64,000 bases of DNA from an uncultured Gammaproteobacteria bacterium (GTDB lineage: Bacteria; Patescibacteriota; Patescibacteriia; Magasanikbacterales; UBA922), in assembly GCA_964566225.1 (NCBI GenBank), contig CAZMHV010000003.1, positions 91,151 through 155,150 of the forward strand, read 5' to 3'. Positions 1,103 to 62,362 of this stretch are shown in pieces. Positions within the stretch are counted from its first letter, which is position 1. The number at the start of each line of letters is the position of its first letter. Made by a program: the position numbers and the translations under genes. The notes below the pieces were generated by a model. The model was not told the origin of the DNA. It saw only the letters and a program-made list of their open reading frames with translations, and did no database searches.

Positions 1103-1129
1103 ATATTTATAAAATACAAATTATACTGA

Positions 1130-1302
1130 GTGGGAATACTTTTCTTTTTTCATTTTTTGATATAGGTCACCATATTTGCTTCGCTCGTTCGGAAGAGAAA
1201 ATAAATTTTCTCTTCTCTCACTCGCTTGCAAATCACCACCCTCCGCGAGGGCGGCGGTCGTAGACCCCGTTTCAAAAAATGAAAAAAGAAAAGTATTCCC
1301 AC
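1130..1302. repeat. Nested palindromic element, copy 1. It has 31-bp perfect outer inverted repeats (1130-1160 and 1272-1302) around a ~111-nt core with internal hairpins.
   Basis: Left arm gggaatacttttcttttttcattttttga is the exact reverse complement of the right arm tcaaaaaatgaaaaaagaaaagtattccc. The core contains gaagagaaaat/attttctcttc and ccctc-cgc-gaggg inner inverted repeats. It shares the motif TACTTTTCTTTTTT with the element at 7299-7443. Confidence 0.7.
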
Positions 1303-1318
1303 GATATTTTCCGCACAT

Positions 1319-4880: not shown

Positions 4881-6359
4881 TTATTTGGGTAAAACAGATT
4901 TAATCCAGTTGGGAAGTCTGGAAGATTTTTGGGATTGTTTAATATGAGTTTTGGCGGTATGTGTTTTCACAAATTCTGACCAGTCTTGACTCGGGCCTTT
5001 GCGGTTTTTATCAATTATAATTTCTACTACATCACCATTTTTGAGAGTGGTGCCGAGGTTCACCATTTTATCATTTACGAGTGCACCGGTACATTTATTG
5101 CCAATTTCACTGTGAATGTGATATGCAAAATCCACAGGTGTGGCACCTTCGGGGAGATCAATCACATCCCCCTTGGGAGTAAAGACAAAAATTCGTGTTT
5201 GCAAAAAGTCGACTTTGATTTCTTCAAGGTCAGAAAGTTTGTTCAAAATATCTCGTTGAATTTCTGCCAATTCTTTGGCCCATTGAATTTCACGACTTGG
5301 TCTGCGTGATCCATTTTCGTCATAGTGCCAGTGTGCCGCAATACCGTATTCTGCTTCTTCGTGCATGGCCACGGTACGAATTTGAAACTCTACCACCTCA
5401 CCATCGTCACCAAATACTGTGGTGTGGAGTGATTGGTAGCCATTGGGCTTTGGTTGTGAAATATAATCTTTGATACGTCCTTTGAGAGGTTTCCATACTT
5501 TGTGCAAAATCCCAAGACAGGCATAACAATCTGCCACGGTGGGGACCAAAATACGAATGGCAAAAAGGTCATAAATTTTGGTAACTTCGTTTTCTTTGCG
5601 TTTGAGTTTTTGAAAAAAACTATAGAGTCGTTTATTTCTTCCTTGAATAGATGCTACCGGAACTCCAGCTGCTTTGAGTTCCTCGAGGGCTTTGTGTTCG
5701 AGTTTGATAAAGTATTCTTCTTTGCCAGAGAGTTTTTCATCACGCATTTTTTTGATGCGTTGGTATTCGGCTGGGTAGACATATTGAAAGGCCAAATCTT
5801 CGAGTTCTCCTTTCATTTCGTCCATGCCCAAACGACTGGCAATGGGTGCATAAATTTCTAAACTTTCAAGGGCAATGCGGTATTGTTTGGGTGGGGGGAG
5901 TGACCCCAAGGTTTGCAAGTTATGAATGCGGTCAGCAAATTTAATAATCATCACGCGCACATCTTCGGCCATGGCCACAAACATTTTGCGTAGATTTTCA
6001 ATGTAGCGTTCTACACCACGGTATTTGAGTTTCCCAAGTTTGGTAATTCCGCGAACCATGGATTCAATTTCACTGCCAAAATTTTTGCCAATTTCTTCGA
6101 GTGTGACGTCTGTATCCTCAGGAACATCATGGAGCAGTGTTGCTGCCACAATAACCGGATCAATGCGCATGTTGGCCAAAATATGAGCTGCAGCGAGTGG
6201 GTGTACAATGTATGGTTCACCAGATTTACGAAATTGTCCGTTGTGGGCTTTTTCGGCAAAGTCGTAGGCGAGGCGCACCAAATCAAGGTCTGCCTTTTTG
6301 TCATAGGTAGCAATTTGGGTGAGCAATGTCTCGATAGTTTGGTTGGGAGTATTATACAT
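4881..6359 (-). CDS. rel: Short bifunctional (p)ppGpp synthetase/hydrolase (RelA/SpoT homolog). HD, synthetase and TGS domains are present; C-terminal regulatory domains are absent.
   Basis: HD motif (VHPLAAAHILANM...LLHDVPEDT), synthetase region (RIKDYISQPKPNGYQSLHTTV), and a TGS-like C-terminus (IFVFTPKGDVIDLPEGATPVDFAYHIH). Only 492 aa. Confidence 0.85.
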   Translation of the reverse strand: MYNTPNQTIETLLTQIATYDKKADLDLVRLAYDFAEKAHNGQFRKSGEPYIVHPLAAAHILANMRIDPVIVAATLLHDVPEDTDVTLEEIGKNFGSEIESMVRGITKLGKLKYRGVERYIENLRKMFVAMAEDVRVMIIKFADRIHNLQTLGSLPPPKQYRIALESLEIYAPIASRLGMDEMKGELEDLAFQYVYPAEYQRIKKMRDEKLSGKEEYFIKLEHKALEELKAAGVPVASIQGRNKRLYSFFQKLKRKENEVTKIYDLFAIRILVPTVADCYACLGILHKVWKPLKGRIKDYISQPKPNGYQSLHTTVFGDDGEVVEFQIRTVAMHEEAEYGIAAHWHYDENGSRRPSREIQWAKELAEIQRDILNKLSDLEEIKVDFLQTRIFVFTPKGDVIDLPEGATPVDFAYHIHSEIGNKCTGALVNDKMVNLGTTLKNGDVVEIIIDKNRKGPSQDWSEFVKTHTAKTHIKQSQKSSRLPNWIKSVLPK

Positions 6360-6517
6360 ACAGAAAGAAAGTCACCTTCACATTGTAGAGCATTTTAGGA
6401 TTTTTGCAAGTTTTGATTTTTGTGAATTTACAGCAAAACACCTGTGCAAAGTGTATTTGCTCTGTAAAATTATTTACTAATTTAAGCTAATTTTAGCCAA
6501 TTTGTAGAGTTTTTCTG

Positions 6518-6546
6518 TTGACAAAGTTGTCAAAAAGGAGTATAAT
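6518..6546 (+). promoter_or_regulatory. Consensus sigma70-type promoter (TTGACA-N17-TATAAT) with a palindromic -35 region, upstream of the island-A gene
   Basis: ttgacaaagttgtcaaaaaggagtataat. The sequence ttgacaa-ag-ttgtcaa is itself an inverted repeat. Confidence 0.5.
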
Positions 6547-6662
6547 GGCCTATTAAAATTCAAAATAGCCAAAAGAGTCTTGTGAGGAGTTTTTTGGGTG
6601 TTTTGGAGTGTTTAATTGTTTTCACCTTTTTTTCGCGAATGTGTTCGCGATGGAGTACTGAC

Positions 6663-7178
6663 ATGGGTTTTTTTCTCATGGTGCCGTTTTCGCTTTTCGG
6701 CATGGGCGTGGCGGTGGTTCTGGGCCTGGTTCTCTTGGCCTGGATTGGTGAGGCGGTGCTGACCGCCTTGATCTGGGCTTTCTCGATCGGGCTTGGCCTT
6801 GCGGGCTTGGTGTTTCTGTTTCGGTGGATTTACCGGGACAAAACGCCTTGGCATCTGCCGCAGGTCCAGCCTCCACCACCGTCTCCCCCGGAACCGTTTC
6901 CGCGAGTTCCTCGGGGCAGTTCACCCTCAATGGTCATCATCGAGGGGGTGCAGATTGTTGTGCAGTCAGGGGCGAATCTGCACATTCATTTGCATGCCGG
7001 CGGCGGGGAGGATCCACCAAACGTTCGTGTCGTCCCCTCACAGTCTCGTCCGGTTCGCCCGCAGGGTGAACCTGCGAAACCTTCGCCGAAAATCATCCCC
7101 CCACAGAACGGTCGTGGCCCCACCTTTGGGGACTGGAACGACCGCTATGGTGGGGGTGACGACGACGAAGACGACTGA
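6663..7178 (+). CDS. GC-rich hypothetical protein: two predicted TM helices, a Pro-rich middle (QPPPPSPPEPFP) and an acidic tail (GGGDDDEDD). Alternative in-frame starts lie at 6582 (GTG) and 6639.
   Basis: Long ORF with high third-position G/C in an AT-rich genome. A GGAG sits 7 nt before the 6663 ATG. Hydrophobic N-terminus GMGVAVVLGLVLLAWIGEAVLTALIWAFSIGLGLAGLVFLF. Confidence 0.5.
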   Translation: MGFFLMVPFSLFGMGVAVVLGLVLLAWIGEAVLTALIWAFSIGLGLAGLVFLFRWIYRDKTPWHLPQVQPPPPSPPEPFPRVPRGSSPSMVIIEGVQIVVQSGANLHIHLHAGGGEDPPNVRVVPSQSRPVRPQGEPAKPSPKIIPPQNGRGPTFGDWNDRYGGGDDDEDD

Positions 7179-7298
7179 GCTTCAACACCAAACGGCACGG
7201 GCAGCAGAGGTTTACGAAAACTCTTGCAGCTGCCCGTGCCGAGAAAGAAAAATAAACCCCCTCACAGTGGAATACTGGAGGGGATTTTTTATTTCATC

Positions 7299-7443
7299 GA
7301 GGAGAGAATTTGTACTTTTCTTTTTTGTTGGCTGCGGGATCGCTCTCATGAAGGTCCCTTCGCCCTGACGGGACTCGGGGGACCTTCATGTATTCGCTAA
7401 GTCCTCGCTCAACAAAAAAGAAAAGTACAAATTCTCTCCTCTC
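7299..7443. repeat. Nested palindromic element, copy 2. It has 32-bp perfect outer inverted repeats around a ~79-nt G+C-rich core that holds its own 12-bp inverted repeat.
   Basis: Outer arms gaggagagaatttgtacttttcttttttgttg and caacaaaaaagaaaagtacaaattctctcctc. Inner arms catgaaggtccc and gggaccttcatg. Shares TACTTTTCTTTTTT with copy 1. Lies between the convergent island-A gene and topA. Confidence 0.7.
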
Positions 7444-7463
7444 ATCAATTTTTTTAATTAAGT

Positions 7464-9782
7464 TTATTCTTCGTCAGTTTCTTTCCCTTTCTTTCCTTTT
7501 GCCTTGGTAACTTTTTTTCCTCCGCGTTTCCAGCCACCTTTTTTGGTAGGTGCTTCGTCAAGAAGTTTGGTGCAGGTTTCGAGGTCGAGTGAAGTTGGTT
7601 CTGTGTCTTTGGGGATTCGGGCATTTCGTTTGCCGTCGGTAATGTATGGTCCATAGCGACCGATTTTGACAATTACGTCACTGCCAGGAAATGTTTTGAG
7701 AAGTGATGCTGCTTGTTTTTCTTGGGCTTCCAAAATAATTTCTTTGGCGCGTGCAAAGTCAACGGTGTATGGGTCATCATTTTTTATACTGTAGTATTTG
7801 CTTCCTACTTTTACGTATGGACCAAAACGTCCAATGCCCACAATCATGTCATGGCCTTCTTCGTCTTGGCCAACATTTTTGGGAAGTTCCAAAAGTACCA
7901 AAGCTTGTTCGAGTGTAATACTTTCTGCACTCAATGTTTTTGGGATAGAAGCAAACACAGGTTTTTCCTCATCGTCTTTACTTCCTTTTTGCACAAATGG
8001 TCCAAAGCGGCCAATGCGCACAGAGATTGGTTTTTGAGATTTGGGATCAATGCCAAGTTCACGGGCTGATACAACAGATTCTTTGGAGAGTGCTTCACCT
8101 TTTTGTACAATGGATTCGTGAAATGGGTGATAGAAGGTAGCGATAATTGGTTGCCACTGTTCTTTGCCTTCCGCAATATCATCCAAATTTTCTTCCATTT
8201 GTGCTGTGAATGCGTAGTCAACAATGCTGGTGAAATGATCGACCAGTAAATCGTTTACGATAAACGCAATGTCTTTTGGTTTGAAACGTTTGTTGTCGTC
8301 GCGTTCTACATATTTATCTTCAATATTTGCCAGTGTTGGTGCGTATGTAGAAGGACGGCCAATGCCAAATTCTTCCATGGCTTTGACAATGGTAGCATCA
8401 GAGTATCGTGCAGGTGGTTCAGTAAAGTGTTGTTCTGGTTTGAGTTCATGACAATTTACGGTCTGTCCCTCTTTGAGTTCAGGCAACATTTCTTCTTTCA
8501 TGGCTTCTGGATACAGGGCAAGCCAACCTGGGAAAATCATAGATTGTCCTGTGGCGCGGAAGGTATAGTTGTTGTTTGATGTAATATCAAGAGTCGTTTT
8601 GTTGAGACGAGCTTCAGTCATTTGTGTCGCAAGTGTTCGTTTCCAAATGAGTGTATACAGTTTGAGTTGTTTGGGGTCAAGATAATTTTCCAAAGATTCT
8701 GGAGTGCGGGTAGGGTCAGTGGGGCGGATAGCTTCGTGTGCTTCTTGCGCGCCTTTACTTTTGGTTTTGAATTTTCGTGCAGAAGCGAGTTCGTATTCTT
8801 TGCCATAGGTGTCGTGAATAAATTGTTTGGCTTCACCCAAAAATTTATCTGCCAAATTCATGGAGTCAGTACGCATGTAGGTAATAAGACCCACGTGGCC
8901 TGTGCCAATGTTTACACCTTCGTAGAGTTGCTGCGCCAAGACCATGGTTTGTTTGGATGAGTATCCTAGTTTTTGATTGGCACTTTGTTGGAGTGTAGAA
9001 GTGGTAAATGGAGCCGGTGGAGTTCGTTTGGCTTCTTTTTGTTCGATGGATGAAACAGAATAATTTGCACCCTTGAGTGAGTGTAACACTTCATCCATTT
9101 TTTCTTTGGTGCCAAGTTCAAATTTATCAAGTTTTTTTCCATTGTGTGCTTGCAGCATTGCTTTCACTTCGTTTTCATTTTTTTTATTTTCTGAAAACAA
9201 CCCTTCGAGTGTCCAATATTCTTCTGGTTTGAAGGCTTGAATTTCTCGTTCACGATCCACAATGAGGCGCACCGCCACAGATTGCACGCGTCCTGCCGAG
9301 AGTCCCCGGGCTACTTTTTTCCACAAAAATGGGGAGAGTTCGTAACCCACCAGGCGGTCCAAAATACGGCGGGCTTGTTGCGCGTCCACAAGTTTTTGGT
9401 CAATATGTCTGGGGTGTGCCAGGGCCTCTTCAATGGCGTGCTGCGTAATTTCGTGAAAGACAATGCGTTTGGCCTTCTCTGGGTCAACATCAAGAATTTG
9501 GGCCAGGTGCCAAGAAATAGCTTCTCCTTCGCGGTCCTCATCGGTTGCAAATATGACTTCAGTGGCTTTTTTGGCTAAATCTTTGAGTTTCTTTACTTGG
9601 GCGCTTTTGTCTTTACTAATAATATAGTGGGGTTCAAAGGTTCCACCATCAATATCTATGCCCATTTTACTCTTTGGCAGGTCGCGTAGGTGGCCAAAAG
9701 AAGACTCCACGGCATAGGCTTTGCCGAGGAATTTGGAGATAGTTTTGGCTTTGGTAGGGGATTCTACGATGACAAGTTTCAT
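7464..9782 (-). CDS. topA: DNA topoisomerase I
   Basis: Toprim N-terminus MKLVIVESPTKAKTISKFLGK...ATDEDREGEAISWHL. Length 772 aa with a Lys-rich C-terminus. Confidence 0.9.
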   Translation of the reverse strand: MKLVIVESPTKAKTISKFLGKAYAVESSFGHLRDLPKSKMGIDIDGGTFEPHYIISKDKSAQVKKLKDLAKKATEVIFATDEDREGEAISWHLAQILDVDPEKAKRIVFHEITQHAIEEALAHPRHIDQKLVDAQQARRILDRLVGYELSPFLWKKVARGLSAGRVQSVAVRLIVDREREIQAFKPEEYWTLEGLFSENKKNENEVKAMLQAHNGKKLDKFELGTKEKMDEVLHSLKGANYSVSSIEQKEAKRTPPAPFTTSTLQQSANQKLGYSSKQTMVLAQQLYEGVNIGTGHVGLITYMRTDSMNLADKFLGEAKQFIHDTYGKEYELASARKFKTKSKGAQEAHEAIRPTDPTRTPESLENYLDPKQLKLYTLIWKRTLATQMTEARLNKTTLDITSNNNYTFRATGQSMIFPGWLALYPEAMKEEMLPELKEGQTVNCHELKPEQHFTEPPARYSDATIVKAMEEFGIGRPSTYAPTLANIEDKYVERDDNKRFKPKDIAFIVNDLLVDHFTSIVDYAFTAQMEENLDDIAEGKEQWQPIIATFYHPFHESIVQKGEALSKESVVSARELGIDPKSQKPISVRIGRFGPFVQKGSKDDEEKPVFASIPKTLSAESITLEQALVLLELPKNVGQDEEGHDMIVGIGRFGPYVKVGSKYYSIKNDDPYTVDFARAKEIILEAQEKQAASLLKTFPGSDVIVKIGRYGPYITDGKRNARIPKDTEPTSLDLETCTKLLDEAPTKKGGWKRGGKKVTKAKGKKGKETDEE

Positions 9783-24941: not shown

Positions 24942-24967
24942 AAAAAATCGAGGAGATACATTTTCTT

Positions 24968-25048
24968 TGTAAACAAAAACCGCATCAGGATTCCTCCATT
25001 CTTGCAGAGTGAACAAATTCACTTTACAAGAATGGGCTGATGCGGTTT
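24968..25048. terminator. Long imperfect nested hairpin (~80 nt) at the guaB 3' end and the island-B boundary
   Basis: Outer 13-bp arms aaaaccgcatcag / ctgatgcggtttt. Inner near-perfect inverted repeat cattcttgcagagtgaa / ttcactttacaagaatg. Confidence 0.5.
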
Positions 25049-25129
25049 TTGAATACGCGCATGCCCGGCGTAGCAGCAGCGGGAATCTCCCGCCGCGCCG
25101 TGGGTGGTCGCCTGAGGCGACCGGTTGGC

Positions 25130-25399
25130 TCAGGCGGCCTTCGCGGCGATGGTGAGCGTCGGCTTCTGGGGCTTCGCGTACAGGCGCGTGCCCGCGTTGT
25201 TCGTGATGATCACGTTCAGGTTGTGATCCTTCGCGAACTCGGCCAGGCGAGTCCCCCCGTCGTGCGTGAGGGCCGTGTAGTGGTTGTCCCAGTTCGCCGG
25301 CTTGGGCAGCCCGATCCACTCATAGTCGAACACCAGGGCCGCGAGCTGTCGAGCATCCGGTCCGTTCACAATCACCGGGATCTTGCATGCAATGTTCAT
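25130..25399 (-). CDS. GC-rich small hypothetical protein (90 aa), possibly a gene fragment
   Basis: MNIACKIPVIVNGPDARQLAALVFDYEWIGLPKPANWDNHYTALTHDGGTRLAEF... A minus-strand promoter-like TTGATT-N16-TATACT lies ~60 nt upstream. Confidence 0.4.
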   Translation of the reverse strand: MNIACKIPVIVNGPDARQLAALVFDYEWIGLPKPANWDNHYTALTHDGGTRLAEFAKDHNLNVIITNNAGTRLYAKPQKPTLTIAAKAA

Positions 25400-25518
25400 T
25401 TTGTTCGCAGATCTTTCACTTACTTGGTTGACTTCACACGCATCTTGGATGCGCGCCGCTAGTATACTCTTTTCCCACAAAAAATCAAGGTTATTTGGCT
25501 TATTTATCCACAAAACAA

Positions 25519-46639: not shown

Positions 46640-46670
46640 AAACATCCACAACAAATGGATGTTTTTTCAA
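46640..46670. terminator. Bidirectional rho-independent terminator
   Basis: aaaaaacatccac-aacaa-atggatgtttttt. Confidence 0.6.
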
Positions 46671-46783
46671 CTCACCAGAAAAAGTATTTGTCTTGTAAGC
46701 TGACGGGACGTGGGGCAGCACGTCGCGAGTTGAAAGAACGAATTTCCCCTTTTCTGCCCAGGGGACGATGTGGTAGCCAGCCC

Positions 46784-47350
46784 TCAGCTGCCGATGATGT
46801 GCTCGCCGGGGTTGTCCCACCCCAGCCACACCAGGTCCCGCGCACTCGACAGGTCGCCACTGCTGAGCTCGCCGGCGTCCTGTCCCGGGTACATGGTCTG
46901 GATTTCGAAGACCCAGTGGCTTGTGTACCTCATCCTCAGCACCATGGTCATGAGGCTCGTCTTGGGGGCGAGCCGTCGACCGATGGGGAGGAAGAACGCG
47001 GTGGTCCGCTTGTTGAGCGGCTTGTACTCTCCGGCGTCGATGTCCTCCGCCGTGAGCTCGTACAGGGGGATGGTCGACGACCACCCTATGGCAGGGGGGC
47101 CGCCGAAGTCGAGCTGCAGTCGCACCGGCTTGTTGACGCTCGGCACGTTGACCAGCTTCTGGAGCTCCGCCACCAGCACCTGAGCCACCTCGGGGTCGCG
47201 AACGAAGTCGTCGAAGCAGCTCCACTCGGCGAAGTTCCCTGCCAGGGCCAACTTGCGACCGCGGAAGCAGGTTTCGGTGAGCCGCCTGCCCTGTTCGGCC
47301 GGCATGACCACCTCTACCTTCGATTTGTCCTCGAGTTCGAAAAACGGCAT
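46784..47350 (-). CDS. GC-rich hypothetical protein (188 aa)
   Basis: The minus-strand ORF has balanced amino-acid composition and G/C-ending codons. An AAAGGA RBS sits before the ATG. The opposite-strand ORF is Arg/Pro/Gly-rich antisense shadow. Confidence 0.5.
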   Translation of the reverse strand: MPFFELEDKSKVEVVMPAEQGRRLTETCFRGRKLALAGNFAEWSCFDDFVRDPEVAQVLVAELQKLVNVPSVNKPVRLQLDFGGPPAIGWSSTIPLYELTAEDIDAGEYKPLNKRTTAFFLPIGRRLAPKTSLMTMVLRMRYTSHWVFEIQTMYPGQDAGELSSGDLSSARDLVWLGWDNPGEHIIGS

Positions 47351-47472
47351 GTGCCGTCCTTTCTTCAGTGCCGGGACCGTTCCCGGTTTTTTTCTCCATT
47401 ATAGAGAGAGAAAAATCGGGAATGGTTACTACGGCAAAAAGATATCATCTTATATTATGTTTATGTATTTTT

Positions 47473-48836: not shown

Positions 48837-49025
48837 TCACTTTTTTGGGGGTGTGCTCTTGGCGCTGTCTCCTCGGGGGGCTCCTTCTCGTGTGAAGAGG
48901 GCGATGACGACGATAAAGGCACCCAGGCACATGGCCGGGGCGTACTCCTTGATGTTGGGGGCAAAAATGGCTGGTCCGACAGTGGACACGAGCCCAATGA
49001 GAGCGAGAACCACGGAGTTATTCAT
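48837..49025 (-). CDS. GC-rich small two-TM protein (62 aa)
   Basis: MNNSVVLALIGLVSTVGPAIFAPNIKEYAPAMCLGAFIVVIALF..., on a ~220-bp G+C-rich patch. Confidence 0.35.
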   Translation of the reverse strand: MNNSVVLALIGLVSTVGPAIFAPNIKEYAPAMCLGAFIVVIALFTREGAPRGDSAKSTPPKK

Positions 49026-49408: not shown

Positions 49409-49542
49409 ACTTCAATGAGTAGTGGAACATCCCTATATATCCGCTTTCGCCCTTTTGGGGCTACTGCGAACGAGGGAAACCGCCCGATCCTGCCTCCCTG
49501 CAGTACCGTCGTTAACCATGTCGTAAAATTAAAAGTGGCCTT

Positions 49543-49593
49543 ATTATAGGGCAAAAGGGTTCGTTTGTCAAGGGGGCAAAATTGGGGTATACT
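49543..49593. promoter_or_regulatory. Face-to-face overlapping divergent promoters. The minus-strand one is TTGACA-N17-TATAAT for rpmA. The plus-strand one is TTGTCA-N17-TATACT for the gene at 49600.
   Basis: Plus strand ttgtcaagggggcaaaattggggtatact; minus strand ttgacaaacgaacccttttgccctataat. The two -35 hexamers are reverse complements of the same site. Confidence 0.5.
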
Positions 49594-57547: not shown

Positions 57548-57582
57548 TACCGACTGTACAAAACAATCGGTATTTTTTTCGC
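57548..57582. terminator. Rho-independent terminator
   Basis: ataccga-ctgtacaaaacaa-tcggtattttttt. Confidence 0.55.
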
Positions 57583-57710
57583 CCAAATAAAGATTCCTTC
57601 ACAAAGAAATATTTATTTGGACGGCCGGGGCGAGTGCACTGCAACGAAAGTTGCTGCGCACCCGCCCGGAGGGGTGAGTGAAGAATGGTGGCGGGGCGCC
57701 GGTGGGACGC

Positions 57711-58346
57711 TCAGCTCGGGAGGTCGATCTTGCCAACACCGAGCATTTCGTCTGTGAGGTGCTGCATGTGGAGCACCTGCCAAGTGTTCTGGACCATGGT
57801 CAGCTCCATGATGTGGCCGGGCAGGAGTGGATCCGGGGCGCTGTAGTTGGGAGTCAGATCCTGCAGCAGGGCATCGATGCGACCCGGGTGGGTGTAGACC
57901 ATGATGGTGACGCCGGGCCTGAATTGGCCCAGGTGAGCACGGACGGCTTGGGCTGACCTCATTCCAAATTCCCATACATCATGTCGATAGTATGCCTTCC
58001 TCGCGATCATGTAGACTTCGGGAGTGACTCCCTCGGCTTGCGCTTGAATCTCATCGATGTTCATCCCCGCCGGAGGTGGGCACAGGTTGAAATTCGTGAG
58101 TTCTTGGGCCGTGATCAGCTTTGCTTGACTGCCTCCAATTTCGTTGTACACCATGATTGCCTGCGCAACCATTTTGGGATCTTGCGAGCACAGGATGCTG
58201 TTGATCTGAATCCCCGCGTTGCGCAGGGCGGCGGCTCGTTCCATGAGCCGTCGCTTTTCTGTGATGTCGGGCTTACGATCGTGCCCGCACACGAAGAAAA
58301 AGCGCGACTGGGAAGAGGGGAAGAAAGGGCAGAGTTTGAGAGGCAT
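57711..58346 (-). CDS. GC-rich hypothetical protein (211 aa), start taken at MPLKLCPFF
   Basis: Strong RBS AGGAGA plus a 7-nt spacer before the ATG. N-terminal segment RFFFVCGHDRKPD. High third-position G/C. No confident domain call. Confidence 0.5.
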   Translation of the reverse strand: MPLKLCPFFPSSQSRFFFVCGHDRKPDITEKRRLMERAAALRNAGIQINSILCSQDPKMVAQAIMVYNEIGGSQAKLITAQELTNFNLCPPPAGMNIDEIQAQAEGVTPEVYMIARKAYYRHDVWEFGMRSAQAVRAHLGQFRPGVTIMVYTHPGRIDALLQDLTPNYSAPDPLLPGHIMELTMVQNTWQVLHMQHLTDEMLGVGKIDLPS

Positions 58347-58399
58347 TTGTTTTCTCCTGGTCGGTAGAGTAAGACAGAACGGCACCATTGCCGGCTCCT

Positions 58400-58460
58400 C
58401 CTCGTATAGGTAGGTAGCTTTCTACCATGGAATACTCCATTGTACAAAGCTACCCACCTG
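58400..58460. promoter_or_regulatory. Operator-like nested palindrome upstream of the island-D gene
   Basis: gtagctttctac-catggaatactccattg-gtacaaagctac has 12-bp arms with one mismatch, plus an inner catgga/tccat(t/g) inverted repeat. Coordinates are +/-1. Confidence 0.35.
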
Positions 58461-58658
58461 GCCATTCATTCTTTTTGAATTGTAAAAAACTCACTCGTAT
58501 GGTCAATAAAAAACGCTGTATAGAGCATTTTTTATTATTTTTTTCCATAATGCCGAAGTATAGCAGAAATTTGGGATTTGTCAAGGTATTGAAAATGTGA
58601 GAAGAATAGTATACGATAGGTTTAAATTTGGCTAATTACAGAAAAAATCTTAGCTACT

Positions 58659-60233: not shown

Positions 60234-61304
60234 ATGACAAAAAAATACGACACGCACCGACGTGAATATACTATCCTTGGTATCACGGCTGTCATCGAAG
60301 CCATGGTGAGTGATATTACACACAAAGTTTATCAGGGTACCTTTCCTGAATTGTTTTCTCTTGTCGTTGATGGTGTGTATTATCACTCTCTGCCTGTGAC
60401 CGGTCGAGAACAGGCAAGTCGGTTGGTGGTGAAGAGTTTTCAAGAGAAGTCCATTGACTTGTCTGCCATGTATGAAATTTTTGATGCAGAAGTGACCAAG
60501 TATGAACAGCTTATCGATCTTCCCGAAGAACAGTTTTCCTTACAGACCATTTTAGACTTTTTTTCTTTTTATAAAGAATTATTTCCGACCGCGTATGTAG
60601 GAATGGATCCAATTGATTTCACTGATACTTTATCTCCGCAAGAAAAAGAAGAATTTTTTGACTGGGCTACCAAAATTCGTCATCGTGGTGAAGTTATTTA
60701 CAAAAGAGGAGAAATGGAATTTATTCCACGCTATTTGGCTTGGTTTGCCAAACATCACGCTTCTCTGTATCGTGTAGATCACTTACTCTACTTAGTGTGT
60801 ACTGAAATGGAAAATTTTGTGCAGAAAAATGCACCACTTCCAACACCTGAGGAACTTGAACAAAGAAAAAAAGTGTTGTATGTCCATCAATATCCACCTG
60901 GTAAGATTGAATTTTATTTTGGTGAGCAAGCTCAAAAAATGATTGATCAAAAAGAATTTTTTAAAAAAGAAGTTGACCACACCGTAAATGAAGTAAAAGG
61001 TCAAGTTGGTTACCGAGGAATTGTCACTGGAAAAGTATGTATTGTCACCAGTCGTGCTGACATGAATAAATTTCAAGACGGTGATATTATTGTTTCCGAA
61101 ATGACTGATCCGAGTTATTTGCCAATTATGAAACGAGCGCTTGCGTTTGTGACTGACGAAGGTGGAATGCTCTGTCATGCTGCCATTGTGGCTCGCGAGT
61201 TGCAAAAGCCTTGTGTGATTGGAACCAAACATGCTACAAAGGTTTTTCATGATGGTGACATGATCGAAGTGAATGCAGAGCAGGGGACGGTGAAAAAAAT
61301 ATAA
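60234..61304 (+). CDS. Paralog of the preceding gene: a shorter unknown N-terminal domain plus a C-terminal PEP-utilizing-enzyme mobile (phosphohistidine) domain
   Basis: C-terminal GDIIVSEMTDPSYLPIMKRALAFVTDEGGMLCHAAIVARELQKPCVIGTK. Confidence 0.7.
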   Translation: MTKKYDTHRREYTILGITAVIEAMVSDITHKVYQGTFPELFSLVVDGVYYHSLPVTGREQASRLVVKSFQEKSIDLSAMYEIFDAEVTKYEQLIDLPEEQFSLQTILDFFSFYKELFPTAYVGMDPIDFTDTLSPQEKEEFFDWATKIRHRGEVIYKRGEMEFIPRYLAWFAKHHASLYRVDHLLYLVCTEMENFVQKNAPLPTPEELEQRKKVLYVHQYPPGKIEFYFGEQAQKMIDQKEFFKKEVDHTVNEVKGQVGYRGIVTGKVCIVTSRADMNKFQDGDIIVSEMTDPSYLPIMKRALAFVTDEGGMLCHAAIVARELQKPCVIGTKHATKVFHDGDMIEVNAEQGTVKKI

Positions 61305-61459
61305 ATAAAAAGAATCCCAGTGATATGGGATTCTTTTTCCAAATGAAGATTCTTGTTTGAAAAATATTCATGTGGCGGAACCGACGGGCATACACATGAC
61401 TTGGAAGTCACGGCATGCGCGTCGGCGACGCGGTTCGTTCGGCTTGGCCGAGAGAGGGC

Positions 61460-62071
61460 TCAGTTGCTCGAGGTCACCGAGCCGTCGGCCGGGTTGAAAA
61501 CCTGGTAGGACAGCTCCTGCATGTCCGACACCACGAGTGCGCCGGAGGGCAGGTCATCCATGTAGTCTTCTTTGAGTACGAGGAAATCGTTGAGCCCGGG
61601 CTCGATGCTGCCCCCGTGGAAGACTACCAAGAGCAGTTCGGTGAGTTCGTCCGTGTCGCGCTCATCGAGCACCTTCGTGACCCGTCGAGCCACTGAGTCG
61701 AAGGGCTCGACACCCTCGGGCAGGGCGGACTGGTCTGCCCACCACTTGATGAACCCCTGGCCGTAGGGCGGAATGCCCTTCTCGGCGTCGCCCTTGGCGA
61801 TGGCGCCGACCCCGCCAGCCGGGTTGAGGCGGGCGTCGGGGTCGTGGACGTTGACCGTGAGGCCCCCCTCCACCAAGATGGCCTGGTATCGGGCGCCGCT
61901 CTCGATCGCCCGGGGCTCCTTGCTGGTCACCAGGTTGATGGTCCTGATGTCCTCGGATCGGCACCGCTTGAGCAGCCAGCGGGCGCTGACGTCGACCTCC
62001 TCCTTGCCGAGAGGGGTGAGCACGTTGTCCTTGTGGGCGCCGTGGCGCGCGGTGGCGACGAAGTTTCCCAT
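61460..62071 (-). CDS. GC-rich histidine phosphatase superfamily protein (phosphoglycerate-mutase-like branch)
   Basis: N-terminal RHG catalytic motif MGNFVATARHGAHKDNVLTPLGKEE. Strong RBS AGGAGA-N7-ATG. High third-position G/C. Confidence 0.6.
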   Translation of the reverse strand: MGNFVATARHGAHKDNVLTPLGKEEVDVSARWLLKRCRSEDIRTINLVTSKEPRAIESGARYQAILVEGGLTVNVHDPDARLNPAGGVGAIAKGDAEKGIPPYGQGFIKWWADQSALPEGVEPFDSVARRVTKVLDERDTDELTELLLVVFHGGSIEPGLNDFLVLKEDYMDDLPSGALVVSDMQELSYQVFNPADGSVTSSN

Positions 62072-62362
62072 GATGGGATCTCCTTGGCAAGGGACGGAGT
62101 AGTTGATTGGCCCGTCCACGATTGCTCACCAGGTAAAATTATTTTTACAGGGTGAGCAACTGTGGACCAGGCTTTTCTCTCAGGTTAATAAGCCAAATTG
62201 TAACGAACCGCAGTATGGTTATTTATAAAAAATCGCTAAAATAAGCAATTTTTATACAACTTTTACCATAACGGTAGAGTGTATCAAAAAATGTTGCTTT
62301 TGTCAATGTATTTGCTGTATACTAAGCCATATAACTGACTGAACTTTTTAATCATTCTGACT

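What the first reader, a model, noticed from the sequence alone, without database searches (positions are those of the whole stretch)
6518..7443. Island A: a GC-rich 2-TM/Pro-rich/acidic-tail protein behind a textbook palindromic promoter and ending in a nested palindrome
A perfect TTGACA-N17-TATAAT promoter has a -35 region that is itself an inverted repeat (ttgacaa-ag-ttgtcaa). It precedes an ORF whose first ~80 nt are backbone-like and whose remainder is G+C-rich. The protein has two TM helices, a PPPPSPPEP proline tract and a GGGDDDEDD tail. The G+C-rich stretch continues into the core of the nested palindrome at 7299-7443. No homolog is recognisable by eye. A small membrane protein with disordered Pro-rich and acidic tails could be an envelope or host-interaction factor.
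Basis: partly seen in the sequence, partly recalled or inferred. Interest (0 to 1): 0.5.

Follow-up and report, generated by a model that had tools for sequence, protein, structure and literature searches.

The report
Orphan membrane-protein gene in foreign islet
A small, fast-evolving gene with no detectable relatives and a foreign (G+C-rich) composition sits behind a very strong promoter in an uncultivated ultra-small (CPR) bacterium and encodes a membrane-anchored, mostly disordered protein. The large hairpin next to it is a separate repeat element, so the finding is real but of an ordinary kind.

Summary
The window is a Candidatus Magasanikbacteria (Patescibacteria/CPR) genome. A perfect TTGACA-N17-TATAAT promoter (6518-6546) drives a 116-nt structured leader. 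The real ORF starts at ATG 6663, not GTG 6582, and encodes 171 aa.

The ORF is coding. Against a sister strain, substitutions by codon position are 17/11/35, dN/dS is 0.26, and both indels preserve the frame. The junctions recur in two independent assemblies, so it is not a chimera.

It is a true orphan. Only its own allele (82% identity) was found among about 15 billion proteins, and nothing in Pfam, NCBIfam, PHROGs, PADLOC, PDB, phage, plasmid or viral collections. Its GC3 is 0.65 against a host mean of 0.33. It is absent from the same topA-relA spacer in about 50 relatives, many of which carry two small conserved RNA units there instead.

The protein has a roughly 55-residue hydrophobic helical hairpin and a disordered Pro-rich tail with a conserved HxHxH motif and an acidic end. 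Its function remains inferred.

The nested palindrome (7299-7441) is not part of the gene. It lies beyond a bidirectional terminator, in the topA 3' UTR, and is flanked by a TCATC duplication. It belongs with a second palindrome at 1130-1302, and I read it as a MITE-like foldback element.

Interest is moderate.

The parts
6518..6546 (+). Consensus sigma-70-type promoter (TTGACA-N17-TATAAT) of orfX.
   Evidence: It matches 12/12. The window has 3 such sites against 0.05 expected, and the other two precede tRNA-Leu and rpmA. It differs at 1 of 29 positions in the sister strain.
6518..6533 (.). Operator-like 16-bp palindrome TTGACAA-AG-TTGTCAA overlapping the -35 hexamer and spacer.
   Evidence: It is a single perfect occurrence in the window. 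In strain L001 the arms are kept and only the central AG changes to AA. No usable -10 lies on the minus strand (read), so it is not a face-to-face promoter. Repressor binding is inferred.
6547..6662 (+). AT-rich structured 5' leader, with hairpin 6559-6607, hairpin 6633-6650 (TCGCGAA/TTCGCGA) and a GGAG ribosome-binding site at 6652-6655.
   Evidence: RNA fold energy is -37.8 kcal/mol, z = -4.2. All 6 substitutions against L001 fall outside the stems. No Rfam family matches.
6663..7178 (+). orfX, a 171-aa orphan protein: two hydrophobic helices (about residues 3-28 and 31-56), a Pro-rich linker, a short beta-hairpin with HIHLH, a second Pro-rich stretch, and the tail GDWNDRYGGGDDDEDD.
   Evidence: Substitutions by codon position are 17/11/35, dN/dS is 0.26, and the two indels are 3 nt each. 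GC3 is 0.65 against a host mean of 0.33, sd 0.05. AlphaFold2 gives a helix over residues 6-60 at pLDDT 82-95, and the rest is below 65. The only homolog is allele P0002.
7193..7241 (+). H1, a GC-rich 13-bp perfect hairpin in the 3' UTR. It marks the end of the GC-rich segment.
   Evidence: It is inverted repeat I11 and appears in the fold. It is 100% identical in both other assemblies.
7242..7294 (.). H2, a bidirectional intrinsic terminator: an A-tract, the stem CCCCTC...GAGGGG with an inner CAGUG/UACUG stem, then a T-tract. It serves orfX (+) and topA (-).
   Evidence: Both strands fold into the hairpin followed by a U-rich tail. It has no substitution and one single-base length change in the T run against the sister strain.
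7294..7298 (.). TCATC, the left copy of a 5-bp direct repeat flanking the palindrome (candidate target-site duplication).
   Evidence: Read directly. The right copy is at 7442-7446.
7299..7441 (.). A 143-bp nested palindrome (foldback, MITE-like element) with AT-rich 32-nt perfect arms and a GC-rich core. It lies between terminator H2 and the topA stop codon (7464), that is, in the topA 3' UTR.
   Evidence: The arms are 100% complementary. The left arm and the start of the core are present in two independent assemblies, whose contigs break there. It shares the 14-mer TACTTTTCTTTTTT with the palindrome at 1130-1302. The 11-mer CTTTTCTTTTT within that core occurs nowhere else in the window.
7442..7446 (.). 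TCATC, the right copy of the flanking direct repeat.
   Evidence: Read directly.
1130..1302 (.). The second member of the palindrome family: 173 bp with 31-nt perfect arms, inserted between scpA (413-1102) and scpB (1319-).
   Evidence: In about 29 of 40 relatives this gap is roughly -8 to 17 nt (mostly 4-12). About 11 lineages carry their own non-homologous palindromes at the same junction.

Best explanation
Shown:
- orfX (6663-7178) is a genuine, lineage-restricted protein-coding gene of foreign composition.
- It lies in the topA-relA spacer of a Candidatus Magasanikbacteria genome.
- It forms a self-contained transcription unit. The parts are a consensus promoter of the class this genome uses for tRNA-Leu and rpmA, a 116-nt structured leader with a GGAG ribosome-binding site, the ORF, a GC-rich 3' hairpin (H1), and a bidirectional intrinsic terminator (H2) shared with the convergent topA.
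- The protein evolves about 28 times faster than neighbouring RelA at non-synonymous sites, but it is still under purifying selection.

Inferred:
- The GC-rich segment (about 6663-7241) was acquired horizontally from an unsampled donor of higher GC. It now sits behind a strong promoter at the position where many relatives carry a small-RNA gene.
- The 16-bp palindrome over the -35 hexamer is a repressor operator, so expression would be strong but switchable.
- The protein inserts as a two-helix hairpin, N-in and C-in by the positive-inside rule. That would leave a roughly 115-residue proline-rich, intrinsically disordered tail in the cytoplasm.
- The tail's conserved elements are the HxHxH strand and the aromatic-acidic C-terminal peptide DWNDRYGGGDDDEDD. 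I propose these bind a partner or cations at the membrane, making the protein a tethering or sequestering accessory factor of strain-specific use. I put this mechanism at roughly 30%.

The 143-bp nested palindrome is not part of the gene. It is a foldback, MITE-like element inserted, with a TCATC duplication, between terminator H2 and the topA stop codon. It would therefore be transcribed only as part of the topA 3' UTR.
For: Coding:
- Substitutions by codon position are 17/11/35, dN/dS is 0.26 (0.17 outside the transmembrane part), and both indels are 3 nt.
- Gene calls on two independent contigs use ATG 6663.

Not a chimera:
- The same relA-orfX-palindrome junctions occur in assemblies from two different SRA runs.

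Foreign and lineage-restricted:
- GC3 is 0.65 against a host mean of 0.33, sd 0.05, max 0.45.
- None of 80 related loci has a homolog, although topA-relA synteny is kept in about 50 of them. Their spacers are mostly 20-450 nt and low in GC.
- No homolog beyond its own allele was found among 5.8 billion clusters or 1.84 billion representatives.

Promoter class:
-.

Leader and terminator structures:
- The 3' UTR shows 0 substitutions in 119 nt, against about 5 expected at the relA synonymous rate.

Protein:
- Hydropathy is 1.7-2.4 over residues 1-55.
- AlphaFold2 predicts a helix over 6-60 at high pLDDT, and the rest is low-confidence.
- HIH[LV]H and the C-terminal peptide are identical in the 82%-identical allele.

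Palindrome is separate:
- On the minus strand the order is topA stop, then palindrome, then the H2 hairpin with its U-tail.
- Removing the 143-bp element plus one TCATC copy leaves H2 about 26 nt from the topA stop. In the relatives the terminator also sits directly beside the topA stop.
- It has a family relation to the element at 1130-1302.
- Lineage-specific palindromes recur at the same intergenic junctions in relatives.

General pattern:
- Five other GC-rich single-gene islets occur in the window.
- Island E shows the same behaviour, with conserved UTRs and a fast-evolving ORF (65% aa identity between sister strains, omega 0.53).
- Horizontal transfer and genomic islands are documented in Patescibacteria (PMC12455944).
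Against: - No donor, homolog or mobility gene was found, so horizontal acquisition rests on composition and absence from relatives only.
- orfX has dS 0.32 against 0.046 for adjacent relA. One acquisition evolving at the backbone rate does not explain this. It needs allele exchange, an older divergence or a locally raised mutation rate.
- The topology and disorder calls rest on hydropathy, charge distribution and a 2-sequence AlphaFold model (pTM 0.29). No dedicated TM or signal-peptide predictor was available.
- The operator idea rests on a single palindrome conserved in only two strains.
- Only one of the two palindromes shows a target-site duplication, and no transposase or further copies could be examined.
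- The proposed molecular function has no direct evidence.
Confidence: 0.65

Rival explanations
1. orfX is a surface or host-interface factor. The hydrophobic N-terminus would export or anchor the protein with the Pro-rich and acidic tail outside the cell, where it would contact the envelope or the host of this episymbiont.
For: - The gene is strain-variable and fast-evolving (omega 0.26, dS above the backbone), as is common for interface proteins.
- Pro-rich extended linkers are typical of envelope-spanning proteins (own knowledge).
- Membrane-related transferred genes have been reported in ultrasmall prokaryotes (cited in PMC12455944).
Against: - There is no positively charged n-region, no cleavage-site-like motif, no Cys (so no lipobox) and no sortase motif (sequence).
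- The basic residues cluster after helix 2 and an acidic residue sits in the inter-helix turn. The positive-inside rule therefore predicts a cytoplasmic tail.
- The soluble part is the conserved part (omega 0.17), not the variable part.
Confidence: 0.15
2. orfX is a remnant of a phage or other mobile element, such as a holin-like, lysis or superinfection-exclusion membrane protein (a 'moron') expressed from its own strong promoter.
For: - It has two closely spaced TM helices and a highly charged C-terminal tail.
- It has an autonomous promoter-terminator unit and a foreign composition.
- There is a weak PHROG hit to a moron-class membrane protein (E = 0.08, TM region only).
Against: - No phage or mobile-element genes are adjacent (relA and topA).
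- There is no match in PHROGs at significance, or in the INPHARED phage, IMG/VR or plasmid collections.
- At 171 aa with a 115-residue tail, it is well outside the usual holin size. The tail is acidic, not basic.
Confidence: 0.1
3. The locus acts mainly at the RNA level. In relatives the spacer holds small-RNA genes. Here the conserved leader and 3' hairpins would be the functional parts, and the ORF would be a weakly constrained passenger (a dual-function transcript).
For: - Many relatives carry two promoter-RNA-terminator units at this site, about 20 with Unit 1 and about 30 with Unit 2.
- The UTRs are more conserved than the ORF. The 3' UTR has 0 substitutions in 119 nt and the leader stems are untouched. 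Island E shows the same pattern.
Against: - The ORF shows clear purifying selection and third-position bias.
- Covariance models of both relatives' RNAs find nothing in the window spacer.
- No Rfam family matches.
Confidence: 0.08
4. The palindrome is functionally tied to the gene or is a DNA switch. Either it is a second terminator or stabiliser of orfX, or it is an invertible segment (inverton) whose 32-nt inverted repeats are recombinase sites shared with the 1130-1302 element.
For: - The perfect arms and the 14-nt core shared by two elements would suit a common recombinase.
- Both Logan contigs break at the arms.
Against: - A complete terminator (H2) precedes it on the orfX strand.
- The cores are themselves quasi-palindromic, so inversion would change little.
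- Relatives carry near-complete hairpins with tiny loops at the same junctions, which cannot be invertons.
- Contig breaks are expected for any inverted repeat of 31 nt or more in a k=31 assembly (the k value is my own understanding of how Logan contigs are built, not a tool result).
Confidence: 0.15
5. The ORF is spurious, that is, an open frame arising by chance in GC-rich non-coding DNA, or the GC-rich segment is an assembly chimera.
For: GC-rich DNA carries overlapping open frames on both strands here, for example 6793-7368 (+) and 6676-6930 (-).
Against: - Substitutions show codon periodicity (17/11/35), dN/dS is 0.26, and the indels preserve the frame.
- A ribosome-binding site, promoter and terminator are present.
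- The same junctions occur in two independent assemblies, one of them a diverged strain.
Confidence: 0.02

Closest known systems
Horizontally acquired genomic islets and orphan accessory genes in Patescibacteria (for example PMC12455944)
   Same: - The composition is atypical relative to the host.
- The gene is absent from syntenic sites in relatives.
- It is a strain-variable accessory gene of unknown function.
- Several such islets occur in one small genome.
   Different: - These are single-gene islets with no integrase, tRNA target or flanking repeats.
- No donor or homolog exists in about 15 billion proteins.
- The ORFs are hyper-divergent between sister strains while their UTRs stay conserved.
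Bacterial MITE-like palindromic intergenic repeats (Neisseria Correia elements, enterobacterial ERIC, pneumococcal RUP; own knowledge)
   Same: - The size is about 100-200 bp with long terminal inverted repeats.
- The location is intergenic or in a 3' UTR.
- The element folds into a long RNA hairpin when co-transcribed.
- A short target duplication (TCATC) flanks it, and more than one related copy occurs in the genome.
   Different: - Only two copies are seen, and they share just a 14-nt core and purine-rich termini.
- The second copy lacks a clear duplication.
- The arms are perfectly complementary.
- No cognate transposase is known.
- Relatives carry unrelated palindromes at the very same junctions.
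Class II holins and small phage membrane proteins
   Same: There are two adjacent TM helices with a tight turn, a predicted N-in/C-in topology, and a strongly charged hydrophilic C-terminus.
   Different: - The tail is far longer (115 residues), acidic and Pro-rich.
- There is no endolysin or phage context.
- There is no sequence or profile similarity.
Membrane-anchored proteins with Pro-rich spacers (TonB, ZipA; own knowledge)
   Same: An N-terminal membrane anchor is followed by an extended Pro-rich, charge-patterned linker.
   Different: - There is no folded C-terminal domain, only a short conserved peptide.
- There are two TM helices rather than one.
- There is no homology.
Integron gene cassettes with attC sites
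   Same: A small orphan ORF is followed by an imperfect palindromic element, and several such units occur in one genome.
   Different: - The units are dispersed rather than in an array, and each has its own promoter.
- The palindrome lacks the R''/R' (RYYYAAC...GTTRRRY) arrangement at its ends.
- No integrase was seen next to it.

Membership tests
Protein-coding gene | Substitutions concentrated at third codon positions, dN/dS below 1, and indels in multiples of three between alleles. | tested here: met
   Substitutions are 17/11/35 by codon position. dN/dS is 0.26. There are two 3-nt indels.
Sigma-70-type promoter | -35 TTGACA and -10 TATAAT hexamers spaced 17 nt apart, with the motif used by housekeeping genes of the same genome. 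| tested here: met
   The match is 12/12. The other two perfect sites precede tRNA-Leu and rpmA.
Sigma-70-type promoter | A mapped transcription start site. | not testable with these tools
   This needs RNA-seq or 5' RACE.
Intrinsic (bidirectional) terminator | A GC-rich stem-loop followed by a U-tract, here on both strands. | tested here: met
   H2 (7242-7294) folds on both strands with U-rich tails. The simple scanner missed it because it reads the 14-nt interval between the outer stem arms as a loop.
Horizontally acquired genomic islet | Composition and codon usage atypical for the host. | tested here: met
   GC is 0.60 and GC3 is 0.65, against a host GC3 of 0.33 +/- 0.05.
Horizontally acquired genomic islet | Absent from the syntenic site in related genomes. 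| tested here: met
   None of the 80 related loci has it. The topA-relA spacer is mostly 20-450 nt.
Horizontally acquired genomic islet | An identifiable donor lineage or homologs elsewhere. | tested here: not met
   Only its own allele was found.
Horizontally acquired genomic islet | Mobility genes or att-type repeats at the borders. | tested here: not met
   The neighbours are relA and topA. No direct repeats bracket the GC-rich segment.
Two-TM helical-hairpin membrane protein | Two hydrophobic segments of about 20 or more residues that are predicted helical. | tested here: met
   Kyte-Doolittle hydropathy is 1.7-2.4 over residues 1-55. AlphaFold2 predicts a helix over 6-60 at pLDDT 82-95.
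Two-TM helical-hairpin membrane protein | Membrane topology (N-in/C-in). | tested here: inconclusive
   Only the positive-inside rule applied to the sequence (E30 in the turn; R54, R58, K60 after helix 2). No TM or signal-peptide predictor or experiment was available.
Class II holin | Small size (about 65-95 aa), two TM helices, and a gene next to an endolysin in a phage lysis cassette. | tested here: not met
   The protein is 171 aa. The neighbours are relA and topA. There is no significant PHROG hit and no phage or viral match.
MITE-like foldback element (the palindrome) | A short non-coding element bounded by terminal inverted repeats. | tested here: met
   The element is 143 bp with 32-nt perfect arms.
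MITE-like foldback element (the palindrome) | A target-site duplication flanking the element. | tested here: inconclusive
   TCATC lies on both sides of 7299-7441. Only GA flanks the element at 1130-1302.
MITE-like foldback element (the palindrome) | Multiple related copies in the genome. | tested here: inconclusive
   Two copies in 64 kb share a 14-nt core. The 11-mer CTTTTCTTTTT within that core occurs nowhere else in the window. The rest of the genome is not available.
MITE-like foldback element (the palindrome) | A cognate autonomous element or transposase with the same ends. | not testable with these tools
   This needs the complete genome or metagenome.
Inverton (invertible DNA switch) | Both orientations present in sequencing reads, and an invertase. 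| not testable with these tools
   No read data were available. The contigs merely break at the arms.
Integron cassette / attC | R'' (RYYYAAC) at the 5' end and R' (GTTRRRY) at the 3' end of the palindrome, in an array next to intI. | tested here: not met
   GTTG/CAAC lie at the inner ends of the arms, in the reverse of the attC order. The islets are dispersed.
DGR (diversity-generating retroelement) target | Variation confined to a short 3' variable region, at adenine positions of a template repeat. | tested here: not met
   All 12 substitution types occur and are spread along the whole ORF. No template-like direct repeat was found.

The most novel reading that the evidence does not exclude
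The GC-rich single-gene islets of this genome are A (orfX), B to E, and the small 2-TM ORF at 48837-49025. They might form a dedicated, rapidly diversifying repertoire of orphan effector or immunity proteins. In this reading each ORF is embedded in a conserved expression module: a strong promoter with a structured leader, plus 3' hairpins. Those conserved flanks would serve as homology arms, allowing divergent ORF alleles to be swapped between strains. That would amount to a cassette-exchange system in CPR bacteria.

The system would use recurrent permissive sites such as the small-RNA locus between topA and relA. A related genome (L005) has captured a different GC-rich ORF at that same site.
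Probability: 0.12. Interest if true: 0.65.

Novelty: new member of a known kind. Interest (0 to 1): 0.4.

Why it matters
orfX adds a protein family with no relatives among about 15 billion sequences. It is strongly expressed by inference and strain-variable, and it comes from a lineage (Magasanikbacteria, CPR) whose accessory biology and host dependence are essentially unknown.

The same window shows that this is not a one-off. Several GC-rich orphan genes share the same behaviour, with conserved structured UTRs and hyper-divergent ORFs. Such genes are plausible candidates for strain-specific interactions with hosts, phages or competitors.

The work also clarifies two points for annotation:
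- The big palindrome belongs to a family of foldback repeats that recurrently occupy the same intergenic junctions in this clade.
- The topA-relA spacer normally houses two conserved small RNAs that match no Rfam family.

None of this overturns current understanding. It supplies concrete targets for transcriptomics and population genomics.

Tried and rejected
Homology and structure searches for orfX:
1. Pfam, PHROGs, NCBIfam and PADLOC gave nothing. The only hit was a TM-only PHROG match at E = 0.08.
2. The word-indexed search of 5.8 billion clusters and the exhaustive HMMER search of 1.84 billion representatives returned only its own allele.
3. PDB gave one chance-level hit at E = 0.45. The phage, plasmid and IMG/VR collections gave nothing.
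4. The structure model has pTM 0.29 and most of the chain below pLDDT 65. I did not run a fold search because matches to such a model would be meaningless.

RNA searches:
5. Rfam, at gathering and at permissive thresholds, gave nothing credible for the leader, 3' UTR or palindrome.
6. I tested whether the leader or the palindrome core derive from the two small RNAs that relatives carry at this site. nhmmer and two covariance models found nothing in the window spacer. The resemblance to the Unit 1 promoter is probably just the clade's generic TTGACAAA promoter.

Palindrome searches:
7. A metagenome scan for inverted repeats carrying the 14-nt arm core returned 17 loci. All were unrelated low-GC elements, from human-gut and poorly coding contigs, and none came from this organism.

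Alternative readings considered and rejected:
8. An integron attC reading fails because the core sites are in the wrong order and place.
9. A DGR reading fails because the substitutions are neither adenine-specific nor localised.
10. A face-to-face promoter does not explain the palindromic -35, because no -10 lies on the minus strand.

Other islets:
11. The proteins of islands C, D and E gave no functional lead. C has no homolog at all. D and E are not similar to each other. E is a weak His_Phos_1 member.
Full report
**Context**

RelA- and TopA-based searches place the window in Candidatus Magasanikbacteria (Patescibacteria/CPR). The best RelA matches are 79% identical MAGs. The finding lies in the spacer between relA (4881-6359, minus strand) and topA (7464-9782, minus strand). 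Window GC is 0.41, and 6650-7249 is at 0.54-0.65.

**Observation check**

- **Promoter.** TTGACA-N17-TATAAT at 6518-6546 is a 12/12 match. Only three such sites occur in 64 kb, against 0.05 expected. The other two sit directly upstream of tRNA-Leu and of rpmA (L27). This organism therefore uses the canonical promoter for its most highly expressed genes, and orfX has one of that class.
- **Palindromic -35.** TTGACAA-AG-TTGTCAA is a perfect and unique 16-mer.
- **Nested palindrome.** The outer arms are 7299-7330 and 7410-7441 (32 nt, 100%). The inner arms are 7347-7358 and 7379-7390 (12 nt, 100%).
- **First correction.** The ORF starts at ATG 6663, with a GGAG 8 nt upstream, not at GTG 6582. Gene calls on two independent contigs use the ATG. 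The 'backbone-like first 80 nt' are therefore 5' leader.
- **Second correction.** The GC-rich tract ends at about 7241. It is separated from the GC-rich palindrome core by an A-tract, a terminator and the AT-rich arms.

**The gene is real and not an artefact**

Two Logan assemblies from different runs carry the locus. L002 is identical to the window. L001 is a sister strain whose relA part is 98.9% identical.

Between the window and L001 the ORF has 63 substitutions. By codon position they fall 17/11/35. The two indels are 3 nt each. NG86 gives dN 0.085, dS 0.32 and omega 0.26, or 0.17 outside the transmembrane part. The substitutions are of all twelve types and are spread along the whole ORF, so this is not DGR-type mutagenesis.

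**Orphan status and foreign composition**

- Pfam, NCBIfam, PHROGs and PADLOC give nothing.
- A search of 5.8 billion protein clusters finds only the gene itself and the 82% allele.
- An exhaustive HMMER scan of 1.84 billion representatives finds only that allele.
- PDB, the phage and plasmid collections and IMG/VR are all negative.
- GC3 is 0.65, against 0.33 +/- 0.05 (max 0.45) for 33 long host ORFs.

**Comparison of the locus across relatives**

topA-relA synteny holds in about 50 of 80 related loci. None has an orfX homolog. The spacer is mostly 20-450 nt and low in GC.

Many relatives carry two short promoter-RNA-terminator units on the orfX strand.
- Unit 1 is detectable in about 20 loci and Unit 2 in about 30.
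- Unit 2 shows compensatory base-pair changes.
- Neither unit matches Rfam.
- Neither unit is detectable in the window spacer by nhmmer or by covariance models.

One relative, L005, has a different GC-rich 337-aa ORF at the same spacer in the same orientation. It has its own TTGACA promoter and terminator and lies beside intact Units 1 and 2. The site is therefore permissive for insertions.

**Anatomy of the transcription unit**

- **Promoter and leader.** Downstream of the promoter is a 116-nt AT-rich leader that folds into two hairpins (z = -4.2). All six differences from L001 fall outside the stems.
- **H1.** After the stop codon comes H1, a 13-bp perfect GC-rich hairpin (7193-7241).
- **H2.** Next comes H2 (7242-7294), an A-tract, stem and T-tract structure. 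It folds as a terminator on both strands.
- **Conservation.** The 119 nt from the stop codon to the palindrome show no substitution against L001. About 5 would be expected at the relA synonymous rate.

**The protein**

Residues 3-56 are strongly hydrophobic. AlphaFold2 predicts them as helix at pLDDT 82-95. The rest is low-confidence, apart from a short beta-hairpin at residues 90-99.

A Gly-Glu turn at residues 29-30 splits the hydrophobic block into two transmembrane-length segments. The N-terminus has no charged residue, and R54, R58 and K60 follow helix 2. By the positive-inside rule this predicts an N-in/C-in hairpin with the 115-residue tail in the cytoplasm. This is an inference.

The tail is 21% proline. 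It carries an HIH[LV]H motif and the terminal peptide GDWNDRYGGGDD, and both are conserved in the two alleles. The variable part is helix 1.

**The palindrome is a separate element**

On the topA strand the order is stop codon, then the 143-nt hairpin, then H2 with its U-tail. The element therefore sits inside the topA 3' UTR and beyond the orfX terminator.

It is flanked by TCATC on both sides. Removing the element and one TCATC copy leaves H2 about 26 nt from the topA stop. In the relatives the terminator also sits directly beside the topA stop.

A second palindrome lies at 1130-1302 (173 bp, 31-nt perfect arms). It shares the 14-mer TACTTTTCTTTTTT in its arms. The 11-mer CTTTTCTTTTT within that core occurs nowhere else in the window. 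This second element splits scpA from scpB, which in about 29 of 40 relatives are separated by roughly -8 to 17 nt (mostly 4-12).

About 11 other lineages carry their own unrelated 86-222-nt palindromes at that same junction. Several relatives also carry unrelated nested palindromes next to the topA stop. I read these as lineage-specific foldback, MITE-like repeats.

The evidence for transposition is incomplete. One of the two elements has a clear target-site duplication, and no transposase has been seen. An inverton reading cannot be excluded without reads.

**A wider pattern**

The window has at least five more GC-rich single-gene islets.

| Islet | Coordinates (strand) | GC3 |
|---|---|---|
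| B | 25130-25399 (-) | 0.88 |
| C | 46784-47350 (-) | 0.88 |
| D | 57711-58388 (-) | 0.69 |
| E | 61460-62071 (-) | 0.89 |
| 62-aa two-TM ORF | 48837-49025 (-) | 0.67 |

- Island C has no homolog at all.
- Island E is a weak His_Phos_1 protein. It has only two homologs, both GC-rich ORFs embedded in AT-rich Magasanikbacteria-like contigs at the same position.
- Against the sister strain, island E repeats the orfX pattern. The leader and 3' UTR are 94-98% identical, but the protein is 65% identical. Its dS is 0.49 and omega 0.53, against dS 0.205 and omega 0.087 for the adjacent gene.

These islet ORFs are therefore fast-evolving accessory genes inside conserved expression modules. Horizontal transfer and genomic islands are already documented in Patescibacteria (PMC12455944).

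**Interpretation**

The best-supported reading is a horizontally acquired, strain-variable orphan gene for a membrane-anchored, intrinsically disordered protein. It would be expressed from a strong promoter that is probably repressor-controlled.

The specific mechanism is inference, at about 30%. It proposes a cytoplasmic tail that tethers or sequesters a partner or cations through the HxHxH strand and the acidic C-terminal peptide.

Rivals are:
- a tail-out host-interface factor;
- a phage-derived holin- or exclusion-type protein;
- an RNA-level function.

The spurious-ORF and chimera readings are effectively refuted.

One point remains unexplained. orfX has dS 0.32 against 0.046 for adjacent relA, and the divergence stops sharply at the stop codon. 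This points to allele exchange or an older allelic divergence rather than simple vertical descent.

**Verdict**

This is a new protein family of a known kind (an orphan accessory gene in a foreign islet), next to a new member of the MITE-like palindromic repeats. Interest is moderate at 0.4. The broader pattern of islets with conserved UTRs and hyper-divergent ORFs is the part most worth following up.

Noticed in passing
L003:9557-9854 (also L005, L010, L015, L020, L034, L039, L049, L058 and others); absent from window 6360-7463: In related Magasanikbacteria the topA-relA spacer carries two conserved small RNA genes. Each has its own TTGACA promoter and intrinsic terminator. Unit 1 is about 75 nt and Unit 2 about 60 nt plus terminator. 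Unit 2 has a closing stem that shows compensatory changes. Neither matches any Rfam family.
   Followed up: partly
window 24951-25450, 46651-47450, 57551-58400, 61351-62200, 48837-49025: Five more GC-rich single-gene islets occur in a genome whose host GC3 is 0.33; theirs is 0.67-0.89. Island C has no homolog anywhere. Island E is a weak His_Phos_1 protein. The ORF at 48837-49025 encodes another small two-TM protein with a Pro-rich and charged tail and its own TTGACA promoter.
   Followed up: partly
window 61290-62330 versus L101 (sister strain) and L100: Island E's ORF is only 65% identical in protein between sister strains (dS 0.49, omega 0.53). Its promoter, leader and 3' UTR hairpins are 94-98% identical, and the neighbouring gene is 96% identical in protein. 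This is the same 'conserved flanks, hyper-divergent ORF' pattern as orfX.
   Followed up: yes
L005:8390-9980 (CAZTEU010000005.1): A relative (RelA 78% identical) carries a different GC-rich ORF (0.50-0.65 GC, 337 aa, internally duplicated). It lies at the same topA-relA spacer in the same orientation, with its own promoter and terminator.
   Followed up: partly
scpA-scpB junction: window 1103-1318; L010, L020, L029, L031, L034, L057, L058, L062, L069: About a quarter of related lineages have independently different palindromic hairpin elements of 86-222 nt at exactly this junction, which is otherwise separated by only about 4-12 nt. This suggests either an insertion hotspot or rapid turnover of a structure-conserved element.
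   Followed up: partly
window 58478-58590 versus 62196-62312, and 57590-57627 versus 61339-61376: Islands D and E encode unrelated proteins. They nevertheless share about 120 nt of promoter and leader sequence (70% identity, E = 8e-10) and a similar 38-nt AT-rich imperfect palindrome just 3' of the GC-rich segment.
   Followed up: partly
window 49410-49571 (minus strand): A third perfect consensus promoter drives a leader of about 130 nt, GC-rich and apparently structured, ahead of rpmA (L27). No Rfam family matched it at gathering threshold.
   Followed up: no
window 6477-6517: The 41 nt immediately upstream of the orfX -35 hexamer differ at 13 positions (32%) between the two strains. The promoter itself differs at 1 of 29 and the relA side at about 1-2%.
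   Followed up: no
L084, L089, L092, L093, L096 (JGI metagenome contigs): These contigs carry low-GC foldback elements with arms GGAGAGGAGGG-CT-TACTTTTCTTTTTT. The arms superficially resemble the window palindrome arms. The contigs have low coding density under genetic codes 11 and 4, so they are probably unrelated.
   Followed up: partly
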